From Actinomycetota bacterium (GTDB taxonomy: Bacteria > Actinomycetota > Humimicrobiia > Humimicrobiales > Humimicrobiaceae), in contig JAQVDY010000005.1 in assembly GCA_028698215.1 (NCBI GenBank), positions 8,108-72,107 of the forward strand: 64,000 nucleotides of DNA, written 5' to 3'. The position numbers and the translations under genes are program-made. The number at the start of each line of letters is the position of its first letter. Position 1 is the stretch's first letter. A model generated the notes under the pieces. That model was given only the letters and a program-made list of their open reading frames with translations. It was not told the origin of the DNA and did not search any database. Below, in pieces: positions 1,485 to 2,968 of this stretch.

Positions 1485-1518
1485 GCGAACCCATAGCAAA
1501 CATAGGTTCGCTTTTCTG
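1485..1518 (-). terminator. Rho-independent terminator hairpin downstream of ilvC (symmetric, U-tract on both sides)
   Basis: GCGAACC (1485-1491) pairs with GGTTCGC (1505-1511). On either strand the stem is followed by TTTTCTG. It lies 15-40 nt beyond the ilvC stop at 1526. The 3' arm of the stem is the LexA box. Confidence 0.55.
1494..1510 (-). promoter_or_regulatory. LexA (Cheo-like) box CAAACATAGGTTCG overlapping the -35 of the lexA promoter (minus strand TTGCTA-17-TATAAT)
   Basis: Box at 1497-1510. The minus-strand -35 TTGCTA is the reverse complement of 1494-1499 and the -10 TATAAT is the reverse complement of 1471-1476, with a 17-nt spacer. Two near-identical boxes occur at 2622-2635 and 2651-2664. 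Confidence 0.6.
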
Positions 1519-1525
1519 TAGTTAA

Positions 1526-2527
1526 TTAATCGTCTTCCTTGCTTATCCAAGTCATCATTTTTCGTAATTTTTTGCCCACCACTTCTACCGGATGGTTTTC
1601 TTCTATTTTTTTAATGGCATGATAGACAGGCCTGCCTGCCCTATTTTCAAGTATCCAGTCTTTAGCAAATTGCCCGCTTTGGATGTCTTTAAGTATCTGT
1701 TTCATATTTTCCCGAGTTTGCTCAGTAATAACTTTTTTGCCTATCATCATGTCACCATATTCAGCAGTATCACTGATGGAGTCCCTCATTCTGGATATTC
1801 CCCCTTCATAAATTAAGTCTACTATCAGTTTTAATTCGCTTAAAACCTCAAAATAGGCTATCTCCGGCTGGTAACCGGCTTCTACCAGGGTATCGAATCC
1901 AGCCCTTATAAGTTCGGTTGTTCCCCCGCAAAGAACAGCCTGTTCTCCAAACAGGTCAGTTTCAGTTTCTTCCTTAAAGGTAGTGGTGATAATTCCAACC
2001 CTTCCTGCCCCTATAGCCTTGGCATAAGCCAGGGCGTATTGTTTGGCCTGGCCGGAATAATCCTGGTATACAGCAATAATAGAAGGCACTCCGCTGTTTT
2101 CAGCAAACATCCTTCTAACTATATGGCCAGGGCCTTTGGGAGCTATCATGATTACATCTACGTCCTGTGGTGGTAATATCTGGTTATAATGGATGTTAAA
2201 ACCATGGGCAAAACATAATATATTGCCCGGCTCCAAATTGGGCTTTATGTCATTATAGAAGATATCTGGCTGCAGCTGGTCGGGAAGAAGGATCATAACC
2301 ACATCTGCCTGTTTTGCTGCCTGGGCAGCTGAATATACGTCAAATCCCTTTTCCTTTGCTTTCTGGGCAGGGCTGCTGTCTTCCAATTCGCCTATAATGA
2401 CTTTCATCCCGCTGTCCCTTAAATTTTGGGCATGCGCATGCCCCTGGCTTCCGTAGCCAATAATAGCAAAGGTTTTTTCATTGAGTATCGCGCTGTCAAT
2501 GTCCCGATCGTAAAATATCTCGACCAT
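1526..2527 (-). CDS. ilvC: Ketol-acid reductoisomerase (class I, NADP-dependent)
   Basis: 333 aa. Contains [17 protein letters not shown] (Rossmann, NADP site) and a strongly conserved C-terminal knotted domain. SD AGGAGG lies 4 nt before the ATG. Confidence 0.95.
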
Positions 2528-2615
2528 AACTCCTCCTAGAAATATTATTTTATATTCATTTTAAAGTAATTAAGAGAAAACTTAAACCTAAATGGGATAA
2601 AAAACAAAAATTTTA

Positions 2616-2664
2616 TTGACACAAACGTATGTTCGCCTTATTATTAAATACAAACATATGTTCG
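2616..2664 (+). promoter_or_regulatory. Sigma-A promoter TTGACA-17-TATTAT with two tandem LexA (Cheo-like) boxes
   Basis: TTGACA 2616-2621, 17-nt spacer, TATTAT 2639-2644. Box 1 CAAACGTATGTTCG (2622-2635) fills the spacer. Box 2 CAAACATATGTTCG (2651-2664) covers +1 and the leader. A GGAGG SD follows at 2669-2673. Confidence 0.65.
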
Positions 2665-2677
2665 TATGGAGGTAAAA

Positions 2678-2968
2678 ATGAAGGTTTTAAATATTTTTAA
2701 GGGAACTTTGCTTCTACTGGCATTACTGGTAACTGCCATGTTTACTTTTACTGCTATTTATTTCAACATTAATAAAGTTACAGGGGTAAATGTTTCCAAG
2801 TACATCCAAATAGCGGTAGATAAGCCTGCAAAAGTTGAAGAAATTGCAGCCAGTTATTCTGATCCTGCTGCTAAACATAAGTTTATAAATGAAACCATGA
2901 GGGTCAATTCTATAAATTCAAATGGCTATATAAGCAACCGTACCATAATAGTGCCTGTATTTGAGTAA
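2678..2968 (+). CDS. Small SOS-controlled membrane protein with a degenerate LysM-like ectodomain (YneA-type candidate cell-division inhibitor)
   Basis: Start moved to the second ATG (2678), which has GGAGG 5 nt upstream. The N-terminal TM helix is LLLLALLVTAMFTFTAIYF. The C-terminal ~50 aa resemble LysM (YIQIAVDKPAKVEEIAASYSD...FINETMRVNSI...ISNRTIIVPV). The promoter is occluded by two LexA boxes. Confidence 0.5.
   Translation: MKVLNIFKGTLLLLALLVTAMFTFTAIYFNINKVTGVNVSKYIQIAVDKPAKVEEIAASYSDPAAKHKFINETMRVNSINSNGYISNRTIIVPVFE

What the first reader, a model, noticed from the sequence alone, without database searches (positions are those of the whole stretch)
1485..2968. Compact SOS module: three Cheo-like LexA boxes and a YneA-type LysM membrane protein under a LexA-occluded consensus promoter, with ilvC inserted in between
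Three copies of CAAAC-N4-GTTCG (the reverse complement reads CGAAC-N4-GTTTG, one mismatch from the Bacillus Cheo box) are present. One overlaps the -35 of lexA. Two tandem copies fill the spacer and +1 of a near-perfect TTGACA-17-TATTAT promoter that drives a 96-aa protein with one TM helix and a degenerate LysM ectodomain. That is the architecture of SOS cell-division inhibitors (YneA, SosA). Unlike Bacillus, where lexA and yneA are divergent neighbours, ilvC sits between them here. The lexA-proximal box forms the 3' arm of the ilvC terminator hairpin, so one sequence acts as both terminator and operator.
Basis: partly seen in the sequence, partly recalled or inferred. Interest (0 to 1): 0.6.

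Follow-up and report, generated by a model that had tools for sequence, protein, structure and literature searches.

The report
LexA-controlled YneA-like SOS gene module
This is an ordinary Gram-positive-type DNA-damage (SOS) switch: the repressor gene lexA plus a small membrane protein related to the cell-division brake YneA, both carrying LexA binding sites, in an uncultured low-GC lineage where the housekeeping gene ilvC has come to lie between them.

Summary
The three CAAAC-N4-GTTCG boxes lie at 1497-1510, 2622-2635 and 2651-2664. They are the only ones in 64 kb (0.06 expected). One abuts the -35 of lexA. Two bracket the -10 of a TTGACA-17-TATTAT promoter for a 96-aa ORF (2678-2968).

Comparative data support the interpretation. 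In 22 related MAG loci the order small ORF / ilvC / lexA / hflX is kept. The lexA box is present in 23 related loci, and 17 keep the exact layout TTGACA | box | -10 | box. All 56 boxes in 195 kb of related DNA sit at these two promoters.

The ORF fails Pfam LysM. It is nevertheless homologous (hhalign 98.3%, E 1e-14) to the TM+LysM genes that lie directly divergent from lexA in Halanaerobiales and Lachnospiraceae. It hits the NCBIfam YneA model below cutoff and models as a TM helix plus a beta-alpha-alpha-beta fold.

Two corrections:
- In the ilvC transcript the box forms the 5' arm and loop of the terminator hairpin, not the 3' arm.
- The hairpin occurs in only about half of the relatives.

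The clade has lost the GDTLW motif, where I place the residues YneA needs to bind peptidoglycan.

Verdict: a new member of a known kind, of modest interest. Induction and function are untested.

The parts
796..1440 (-). lexA (214 aa), the SOS repressor. The cleavage-site Ala-Gly (VAAG), the Ser in GDSM and the Lys in TVKR are all present.
   Evidence: Pfam LexA_DNA_bind plus Peptidase_S24. TIGR00498 scores 230 bits against a cutoff of 111. It aligns end to end with solved LexA structures such as 3k2z at E 5e-35.
1471..1499 (-). lexA promoter: -35 TTGCTA (1499-1494), 17-nt spacer, TG-extended -10 TATAAT (1476-1471).
   Evidence: Promoter scan gives 10 of 12 matches with a TG extension. The -10 and its spacing to the box are conserved in the relatives.
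1497..1510 (-). LexA operator of lexA. It reads CGAACCTATGTTTG on the lexA strand, and its last three bases (TTG) are the first three of the -35.
   Evidence: CGAAC-N4-GTTTG is present at this position in all 23 related loci that cover it. That the T at box position 13 is kept because it also serves the -35 is my inference.
1478..1520 (-). Hairpin at the 3' end of ilvC, the probable intrinsic terminator. The core stem is 1511-1501 paired with 1495-1485, the loop is 1500-1496, and the tail UUUUCU is 1484-1479. The 3' arm and U-tract lie in the spacer of the lexA promoter.
   Evidence: -27.3 kcal/mol, z = -7.1, 0 of 200 shuffles fold as well. Comparable hairpins occur in 12 of 23 relatives. 93% of cells pair and there is a C-G to U-A swap. 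The simple terminator scan did not list it.
1526..2527 (-). ilvC (ketol-acid reductoisomerase, 333 aa), lying between the two SOS promoters. It is probably not part of the SOS circuit.
   Evidence: KARI_N and KARI_C at E 1e-74 and 1e-65. The same position is kept in 22 related loci. It is absent from the lexA-yneA spacer of the Bacillota loci.
2616..2644 (+). Promoter of the small ORF: TTGACA (2616-2621), 17-nt spacer, TATTAT (2639-2644).
   Evidence: 11 of 12 matches, the best in the scanned region. TTGACA abuts box 1 in the window and in 17 relatives.
2622..2635 (+). LexA operator 1 of the small ORF (CAAACGTATGTTCG), inside the -35/-10 spacer.
2651..2664 (+). LexA operator 2 of the small ORF (CAAACATATGTTCG), starting 7 nt after the -10 and therefore at about +1.
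   Evidence: The two boxes are separated by 14-15 nt in 16 of the 17 relatives.
2678..2968 (+). yneA-like gene, 96 aa, with GGAGG at 2668-2672. It has an N-terminal TM helix (hydrophobic residues about 9-29) and an extracytoplasmic beta-alpha-alpha-beta domain (residues 39-95) that is a LysM remnant lacking the GDTLW motif.
   Evidence: NCBIfam YneA NF010723 at E 2e-6, 27.5 bits against a cutoff of 60, covering profile positions 8-86 of 87. All 15 family members hit that model. hhalign against lexA-divergent TM+LysM proteins gives 98.3%, E 1.3e-14. The AF2 model has pLDDT 86.9. The best Foldseek matches are LysM domains. Gene callers use the same start codon.
3115..3159 (+). AT-rich, near-perfect inverted repeat 150 nt after the small ORF, followed by UUUUG. 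It is a possible terminator of the small ORF transcript (tentative).
   Evidence: It is the long helix in the fold of 2960-3170. Both strands give sub-threshold hairpin-type Rfam matches. I did not check whether relatives conserve it.

Best explanation
The region is a LexA-governed SOS module of the Gram-positive type. Its parts are an autoregulated lexA and a LexA-repressed gene for a small bitopic membrane protein of the YneA lineage.

Proposed mechanism:
- In undamaged cells one LexA dimer sits on the box that overlaps the -35 of lexA.
- Two LexA dimers sit on the boxes in the spacer and at +1 of the strong promoter of the small gene. They keep RNA polymerase off it.
- DNA damage produces RecA-ssDNA filaments, and LexA cleaves itself at its Ala-Gly bond.
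- Both promoters open. The 96-aa protein inserts in the membrane, N-terminus in and C-terminus out, and delays septation until repair is done.
- By analogy with B. subtilis YneA, it would do this by docking through its TM helix on the septal peptidoglycan synthase FtsW.

ilvC is a passenger. It came to lie between the two ancestral back-to-back promoters in the common ancestor of this clade. In the compact versions of the locus its terminator hairpin is built from the lexA operator (5' arm and loop) and the lexA promoter spacer (3' arm and U-tract).

Shown here: the motifs, their placement and conservation, homology of the protein, and the derived gene order. Inferred: LexA binding, damage induction, membrane topology and division inhibition.
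For: - Motif enrichment: 3 boxes against 0.06 expected in the window. In 195 kb of related loci there are 56 against 0.6 expected, every one at the lexA or small-ORF promoter.
- Operator placement: the sites overlap core promoter elements. The layout is conserved in 17 relatives for the small ORF and 23 for lexA.
- Ancestral design: the same layout appears in the lexA-yneA intergenic regions of Halanaerobiales and Lachnospiraceae, which lack ilvC.
- Intact repressor: lexA passes TIGR00498 and both Pfam domains and keeps the cleavage and catalytic residues.
- Small ORF is a real gene: it is conserved with synteny in 15 relatives, forms a family of about 15 clusters at 50% identity, and is called with the same start by public gene callers.
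- Small ORF is YneA-related: profile searches hit lexA-divergent TM+LysM ORFs in both directions, and those ORFs pass Pfam LysM. hhalign gives 98.3%, E 1.3e-14 over 99 columns. The NCBIfam YneA model is hit by 15 of 15 members.
- Fold: AF2 gives a TM helix plus beta-alpha-alpha-beta at pLDDT 86.9, with LysM domains as the best structural matches.
- Literature: single-TM, mostly LysM-bearing SOS division inhibitors next to lexA are the rule in Gram-positives (PMC6851548). The YneA TM helix targets TM7 of FtsW (PMC13396833).
Against: - The protein fails the curated thresholds of both relevant models. There is no Pfam LysM hit for it, and only 1 of 15 family members reaches E 0.075. NCBIfam YneA scores 27.5 bits against a cutoff of 60.
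- The G-D-T-L-W motif is conserved in the Bacillota homologues (G, L and W invariant). In the window it is replaced by P-A-K-V-E and it is variable across the clade.
- In B. subtilis YneA, D46A and T47A abolish peptidoglycan binding and toxicity (PMC13396833). I place those residues in that motif by inference. The published mechanism therefore cannot apply unchanged.
- Foldseek E-values are weak (best 0.17), as expected for a 55-residue domain.
- Three relatives with room upstream of ilvC lack the gene there (L005, L021, L023).
- There are no expression or binding data of any kind.
Confidence: 0.75

Rival explanations
1. The small protein is LexA-regulated but is no longer a division inhibitor. 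Having lost the sugar-binding residues of LysM, it would serve some other envelope role during DNA damage, or would be a decaying remnant kept only by its promoter context.
For: - The GDTLW motif is lost in the whole clade while the Bacillota homologues keep it.
- Peptidoglycan binding is essential for YneA activity in B. subtilis (PMC13396833).
- The gene is missing next to ilvC in L005, L021 and L023.
Against: - The ectodomain is under clear constraint. Y42, Y60, F69 and P93 are invariant and E72 and N77 nearly so across proteins only 21-47% identical. That argues against decay.
- The tight two-operator repression of a consensus promoter is kept in 17 species. Such control is typical of a product that is toxic when expressed.
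- SosA and DivS inhibit division without any LysM domain (PMC6851548).
Confidence: 0.18
2. The inverted repeat at 1478-1520 is not an ilvC terminator. It would instead be a DNA-level element such as an extended or alternative operator or a cruciform. On this reading ilvC and lexA are co-transcribed.
For: - The consensus terminator scan did not list it.
- The U-tract is short in the window (UUUUCU).
- The 3' arm necessarily recreates a GTTCG half-site.
- About half of the relatives lack the hairpin yet keep the box.
Against: - Stability is very high for its composition (z = -7.1).
- It sits directly after the ilvC stop codon, and most relatives that have it carry a T-run of 6.
- Pairing is kept by a C-G to U-A swap at a position (box position 6) that LexA does not constrain.
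- Relatives without it have much longer ilvC-lexA spacers, with room for a separate terminator.
Confidence: 0.15
3. ilvC is itself part of the LexA regulon. The two boxes in the shared divergent control region, or read-through into lexA, would tie branched-chain amino-acid synthesis to the SOS response.
For: - ilvC has stayed between the two SOS promoters in 22 species.
- The boxes lie only 95-137 bp upstream of its start codon.
Against: - No promoter-like site for ilvC overlaps the boxes.
- The distance from the boxes to ilvC varies from about 90 to over 380 bp among relatives, while the boxes stay locked to the small-ORF promoter.
- A conserved TG-extended -10-like element for ilvC lies well away from the boxes in many relatives (my reading).
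- The terminator insulates lexA.
Confidence: 0.07
4. The repeats are bound by a regulator other than LexA, or are chance or repeat-element sequences.
For: None beyond the lack of binding data.
Against: - The motif equals the Gram-positive LexA consensus, with only R/Y variation at positions 2 and 13.
- It sits at the lexA promoter itself in 23 relatives and in distant Bacillota.
- Chance expectation is 0.06 per window.
Confidence: 0.02

Closest known systems
YneA of Bacillus subtilis (also Listeria and B. megaterium): the SOS-induced cell-division inhibitor
   Same: - It is a small (about 100 aa) bitopic protein with an N-terminal TM helix and a C-terminal LysM-type domain.
- It is repressed by LexA through Cheo-type boxes and linked to lexA.
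- The window protein hits the NCBIfam YneA model over the model's full length.
- The window protein is homologous to the lexA-divergent TM+LysM genes of other Bacillota.
   Different: - It scores below the family cutoff (27.5 against 60 bits).
- The GDTLW sugar-binding motif is lost. PMC13396833 shows that peptidoglycan binding (D46, T47, I81) is essential for YneA.
- It is not directly divergent from lexA, because ilvC (1 kb) lies between.
- The family is confined to an uncultured low-GC lineage that depositors label Actinomycetota or Ca. Humimicrobiaceae.
lexA-divergent TM+LysM ORFs of Halanaerobiales and Lachnospiraceae (fetched here, for example L035 5484-5828, L072 5485-5799)
   Same: - The promoter and operator layout is identical: TTGACA, a box in the spacer, the -10, and a box at +1 for the small gene, plus one box abutting the -35 of lexA.
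- The proteins are homologous.
   Different: - These proteins pass Pfam LysM and keep GDTLW.
- The two promoters are back to back in a single 140-315 bp spacer.
ChiZ (Rv2719c) of Mycobacterium tuberculosis
   Same: It is an actinobacterial, lexA-adjacent, single-TM, LysM-bearing, DNA-damage-induced division inhibitor (PMC6851548). It is predicted to bind TM7 of FtsW as YneA does (PMC13396833).
   Different: From my own knowledge, ChiZ is longer, with a disordered cytoplasmic N-terminal region. I made no sequence comparison here. The high-GC Actinomycetota loci I fetched (L027, L036, L053) gave no hit to either profile.
SosA (Staphylococcus aureus) and DivS (Corynebacterium glutamicum)
   Same: They are lexA-linked, LexA-controlled, single-TM division inhibitors that work without a functional LysM domain (PMC6851548). 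They set a precedent for how a LysM-degenerate protein could still act.
   Different: There is no detectable sequence relationship. The window protein keeps the LysM fold.
SulA of Escherichia coli
   Same: It has the same logic: a LexA-repressed brake on division.
   Different: It is an unrelated cytoplasmic protein that binds FtsZ. It is only a functional analogue.

Membership tests
LexA repressor (TIGR00498; Pfam PF01726 + PF00717) | N-terminal LexA DNA-binding domain plus C-terminal S24 peptidase domain, scoring above the curated cutoffs | tested here: met
   TIGR00498 scores 230.1 bits against a cutoff of 110.95. PF01726 gives E 1.3e-21 and PF00717 E 3.2e-34.
LexA repressor (TIGR00498; Pfam PF01726 + PF00717) | Ala-Gly cleavage site and Ser/Lys catalytic dyad | tested here: met
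   VAAG, GDSM and TVKR align with the corresponding segments of solved LexA chains.
Gram-positive LexA operator (Cheo box, CGAAC-N4-GTTCG) | 14-bp palindrome matching the consensus, enriched over chance | tested here: met
   There are three sites, each one mismatch from the perfect palindrome, against 0.06 expected. The consensus over 56 sites in relatives is C-R-A-A-C-N-T-N-T-G-T-T-Y-G.
Gram-positive LexA operator (Cheo box, CGAAC-N4-GTTCG) | Located at the lexA promoter (autoregulation), overlapping core promoter elements, and conserved in orthologous promoters | tested here: met
Gram-positive LexA operator (Cheo box, CGAAC-N4-GTTCG) | Bound by LexA and derepressed on DNA damage | not testable with these tools
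   This needs EMSA or footprinting and expression data.
YneA (NCBIfam NF010723, cell division suppressor protein YneA) | Score at or above the curated cutoff of the equivalog model | tested here: not met
   27.5 bits against a cutoff of 60, although profile positions 8-86 of 87 are aligned. All 15 family members hit the model, best E 8.9e-10.
YneA (NCBIfam NF010723, cell division suppressor protein YneA) | Single N-terminal transmembrane helix with an extracytoplasmic C-terminus | tested here: inconclusive
   A 21-residue hydrophobic stretch lies within an AF2 helix spanning residues 2-35. The orientation is inferred from homology and was not computed.
YneA (NCBIfam NF010723, cell division suppressor protein YneA) | C-terminal LysM domain (Pfam PF01476) competent to bind peptidoglycan | tested here: not met
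   The window protein has no PF01476 hit, and 1 of 15 members reaches E 0.075. GDTLW is replaced. The fold itself is LysM-like, and homology to LysM-bearing proteins is strong.
YneA (NCBIfam NF010723, cell division suppressor protein YneA) | Gene directly divergent from lexA | tested here: not met
   ilvC lies between the two genes, and the starts of lexA and the small ORF are 1.24 kb apart. The linkage is nevertheless conserved in the clade.
YneA (NCBIfam NF010723, cell division suppressor protein YneA) | LexA boxes in its promoter | tested here: met
   Two boxes, in the spacer and at +1.
YneA (NCBIfam NF010723, cell division suppressor protein YneA) | Blocks septation when induced, through FtsW | not testable with these tools
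   This needs overexpression and suppressor genetics, as in PMC13396833.
Intrinsic (Rho-independent) terminator | Stable GC-containing stem-loop directly followed by a U-tract at the 3' end of a gene | tested here: inconclusive
   The stem is stable (-27.3 kcal/mol, z = -7.1). It lies 6-15 nt after the ilvC stop codon, with the tail UUUUCU, and T6 in most relatives that have it. There is some covariation. The scan tool did not call it, and there are no 3'-end data.

The most novel reading that the evidence does not exclude
In this uncultured clade the YneA lineage has given up peptidoglycan binding but stays under very tight two-operator LexA control. On this reading the protein brakes division by a route that does not depend on LysM binding peptidoglycan: TM-helix docking on FtsW plus a re-purposed ectodomain surface marked by the clade-specific invariant residues Y42, Y60, F69 and E72. 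It would be a natural counter-example to the 2026 model in which peptidoglycan binding is essential. In addition, the fusion of the ilvC terminator with the lexA operator and promoter spacer would make ilvC transcription and LexA occupancy interfere with each other.
Probability: 0.2. Interest if true: 0.45.

Novelty: new member of a known kind. Interest (0 to 1): 0.3.

Why it matters
It gives a name and a testable role to a small protein family that public records call 'hypothetical protein' or mis-name as FtsL, PilE or EscR.

It shows that the Gram-positive design is much older than the Bacillus model. That design is one operator on lexA and two on a consensus promoter for a membrane-bound division brake. 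It is shared, base for base in its layout, by Halanaerobiales, Lachnospiraceae and a deep low-GC lineage labelled Actinomycetota.

The loss of the GDTLW motif in a homologue that is still tightly LexA-controlled is a natural test of whether peptidoglycan binding is universally needed by YneA-type inhibitors.

The terminator-operator-promoter overlap is a neat example of sequence economy. It is not a new principle.

Tried and rejected
- Pfam on the small ORF gave no LysM and only noise.
- The word-indexed homologue search found only the protein itself. The exhaustive HMMER search was needed to find the family. One of its hits, P0013 (1284 aa, repetitive), was discarded as spurious.
- A profile search of PDB sequences gave nothing significant. 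The best real LysM entry (2djp) had E about 1.
- Rfam found nothing in the region beyond sub-threshold hairpin-like matches, so there is no riboswitch or leader for ilvC or the small ORF.
- A search for further operators in the window found only an intragenic one-mismatch site at 23587 and a weak core match at 37704. I judge both to be chance.
- I looked for an ilvC promoter overlapping the boxes, which would have made ilvC SOS-regulated, and found none.
- I looked for actinobacterial ChiZ-like genes next to lexA in the high-GC loci L027, L036 and L053. Neither profile hit them.
- I could not retrieve the B. subtilis YneA sequence itself. Placing D46 and T47 in the GDTLW motif is therefore an inference from the paper's description.
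Full report
**What is in the sequence.** The left end of the window reads as follows:
- the 3' end of hflX (to 799, +);
- lexA (796-1440, -);
- ilvC (1526-2527, -);
- a small ORF on the + strand (2678-2968, 96 aa; an upstream in-frame ATG at 2666 would give 100 aa);
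- a 400-bp gap and then a 395-aa ORF with no family.

CAAAC-N4-GTTCG occurs three times, at 1497-1510, 2622-2635 and 2651-2664. It occurs nowhere else in the 64 kb, and shuffles give 0.06. Allowing one mismatch to the perfect palindrome adds only an intragenic site at 23587.

**Promoters.** The promoter scan finds two relevant sites:
- TTGACA-17-TATTAT at 2616-2644, with 11 of 12 matches. This is the best site in the scanned region.
- TTGCTA-17-TATAAT with a TG extension at 1499-1471 on the minus strand.

Box 1 of the small gene starts at the base after TTGACA and fills 14 of the 17 spacer positions. Box 2 starts 7 nt after the -10. GGAGG (2668-2672) lies 5 nt before the ATG at 2678. The lexA box ends in the TTG that begins the lexA -35.

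**The boxes are conserved operators.** A scan of one genome per species with the LexA protein returned 80 loci.

The closest loci (LexA 60-73% identical) are low-GC MAGs that depositors label Actinomycetota. One family member is labelled Candidatus Humimicrobiaceae. In 22 of these loci the order ilvC, lexA, convergent hflX is kept. In 15 of them a homologue of the small ORF lies divergent from ilvC.

The sites themselves are also kept:
- CGAAC-N4-GTTTG sits just before a TG-extended or plain TATAAT at the spacing seen in the window, in all 23 loci that cover the lexA promoter.
- The small-ORF promoter has the exact layout TTGACA | box | 14-15 nt holding the -10 | box in 17 loci. One of them has 21 nt instead.
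- The degenerate pattern C[AG]AAC-N4-GTT[CT]G occurs 56 times in 195 kb of related DNA, against a shuffle mean of 0.6. Every occurrence is at one of these two promoters.

Positions 2 and 13 wobble (R/Y), and position 9 is T in 56 of 56 sites. At lexA the promoter-proximal half-site is always GTTTG. I infer that this is because its TTG doubles as the start of the -35.

**The layout is ancestral and ilvC is the newcomer.** In the Halanaerobiales, Lachnospiraceae and other Bacillota loci of the same scan, a small minus-strand ORF starts 140-315 bp upstream of lexA. The shared spacer shows the same design:
- a GAAC-N4-GTTTG box abutting the lexA -35;
- on the other strand, TTGACA, a box in the spacer, TATAAT, and a box at +1.

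The window's clade thus keeps both promoter-operator units intact but has a 1-kb ilvC gene between them. This agrees with the literature, in which lexA-adjacent inhibitors are the rule in Bacillus, Listeria, Staphylococcus, Mycobacterium and Corynebacterium (PMC6851548).

**What the small protein is.** It has no Pfam LysM hit. The word-indexed search found only the protein itself.

The exhaustive search found a small family: 16 hits at E <= 0.001, one of them spurious. All members are about 100 aa. Each has a basic N-terminus, a hydrophobic stretch of about 21 residues, and a C-terminal region with Y42, Y60, F69 and P93 invariant and E72 and N77 nearly so.

Evidence that it belongs to the YneA lineage:
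- The window protein hits the NCBIfam YneA equivalog model over profile positions 8-86 of 87. The score is 27.5 bits against a cutoff of 60. All 15 family members hit the same model.
- A profile of the family picks out the lexA-divergent ORFs of the Bacillota loci. Ten such ORFs pass Pfam LysM. Their profile hits the window clade in return.
- hhalign between the two alignments gives 98.3% probability, E 1.3e-14, over 99 columns covering both the TM helix and the domain.
- AlphaFold2 on the family alignment gives pLDDT 86.9, with helix 2-35, strand 39-47, helices 53-57 and 63-77, and strand 88-95.
- The best Foldseek matches in the PDB are LysM domains: Ecp6, MoCVNH-LysM, CEBiP, MltD and intimin. 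Their E-values are weak, 0.17 at best.

'YneA-type protein with a degenerate LysM' is therefore a fair description. Strict membership of the curated YneA and LysM families is not met.

**A real difference.** The Bacillota homologues keep G, L and W of the G-D-T-L-W motif invariant. In the joint alignment the window has P-A-K-V-E at those positions, and the clade as a whole is variable there. The LysM asparagine (N77) and the final proline are shared by all.

A 2026 study reports three things about B. subtilis YneA (PMC13396833):
- it reaches the septum through its TM helix binding TM7 of FtsW;
- it blocks septal peptidoglycan synthesis;
- it needs peptidoglycan binding by LysM, because D46A, T47A and I81A abolish both binding and toxicity.

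I could not retrieve the B. subtilis sequence, so placing D46 and T47 in GDTLW is my inference. If that placement is right, the published mechanism cannot apply unchanged here. SosA and DivS, which have no LysM, show that such proteins can still inhibit division (PMC6851548).

**The hairpin.** On the ilvC/lexA strand, 1520-1478 folds into a long stem (-27.3 kcal/mol, z = -7.1). Its parts are:

| Part | Coordinates | Notes |
|---|---|---|
| 5' arm of core stem | 1511-1501 | GCGAACCUAUG, containing the CGAAC half-site |
| Loop | 1500-1496 | UUUGC, the end of the GTTTG half-site |
| 3' arm of core stem | 1495-1485 | lies in the lexA promoter spacer |
| Tail | 1484-1479 | UUUUCU, runs up to the -10 |

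In the RNA the box is the 5' arm plus loop.

Comparable hairpins occur in 12 of 23 relatives, two of them weakened, and most of these carry a T6 tail. The other relatives have ilvC-lexA spacers of about 110-215 bp and no such hairpin, yet they keep the box.

Among the loci that have the hairpin, 93% of cells pair, against 29-48% for slid controls. Box position 6 switches from C-G to U-A in three sequences. I chose those rows for having the hairpin, so the percentage paired is biased. The compensatory change is not.

I read the hairpin as a probable intrinsic terminator that insulates lexA from ilvC. The scan tool did not call it, and only 3'-end mapping can settle the point.

**Mechanism, and what is shown versus inferred.**

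Shown:
- motif enrichment, placement and conservation;
- an intact LexA with its cleavage and catalytic residues;
- homology and fold of the small protein;
- the derived gene order.

Inferred from established SOS biology:
- LexA occupies the three boxes.
- Two dimers occlude the strong small-gene promoter and one dimer damps lexA.
- RecA-stimulated self-cleavage opens both promoters.
- The membrane protein delays septation.

ilvC shows no sign of LexA control. No ilvC promoter overlaps the boxes. The distance from the boxes to ilvC varies several-fold among relatives.

**Verdict.** It is nevertheless the standard Gram-positive SOS arrangement in an unstudied lineage. Three modest twists remain: a passenger gene between the promoters, a fusion of terminator and operator, and a LysM remnant without its sugar-binding motif. 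Public records do not annotate the family. I rate it a new member of a known kind, with interest 0.3.

Noticed in passing
window 796-799: lexA (-) and hflX (+) converge, and their stop codons overlap within the four bases TTAA. No spacer or terminator lies between them. The tail-to-tail arrangement is kept in the related loci.
   Followed up: partly
window 1441-1470: The roughly 25-nt lexA leader has no recognisable Shine-Dalgarno sequence before the ATG at 1440 (…CTTAGAACTAGACCTAATG). The closest relatives look the same. The small ORF, by contrast, has a perfect GGAGG.
   Followed up: no
window 3115-3159: An almost perfect AT-rich inverted repeat (AAAATACTAAATAAC…GTTATTTAGTATTTT) lies 150 nt after the small ORF. 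It may be a bidirectional terminator. Both strands give sub-threshold sRNA-type Rfam matches.
   Followed up: partly
window 3095-3284: A promoter-like site (TTGTCA-18-TAAAAT, 3095-3124) is followed by a terminator-like hairpin with a T-run at 3261-3284, just upstream of the 395-aa ORF. This could be a short leader or attenuator, or a small RNA. No Rfam family matches.
   Followed up: no
window 3373-4560: A 395-aa ORF has no Pfam family and only a faint NCBIfam manA (class I mannose-6-phosphate isomerase) match at E 0.03. It follows the small ORF in the other public contigs that encode the identical small protein, and a dUTPase gene (4753-5190) comes next.
   Followed up: no
window 23587-23600: CGAACTGCTGTTCT is one mismatch from the Cheo palindrome, but it lies inside the 5' part of an ORF (23240-23635, -) and has a GC-rich spacer. 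It is probably chance.
   Followed up: partly
window 25171-25245 (-): This is the only Rfam match above gathering score in the window: a tRNA gene.
   Followed up: no
L005, L021, L023 (upstream of ilvC); L022 2867-3205: Three relatives have no yneA-like gene next to ilvC although the contig continues. In L022 the gene lies 1.6 kb further away and only one strict box matches. The gene is therefore mobile or dispensable within the clade.
   Followed up: partly
L001-L024 versus L025-L080: LexA of this lineage, labelled Actinomycetota, is closest (50-57% identity) to LexA of Halanaerobiales and other Bacillota. High-GC Actinomycetota are no closer, and the yneA-like gene also groups with Bacillota homologues. 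The phylum label comes from the depositors and I did not check it.
   Followed up: no
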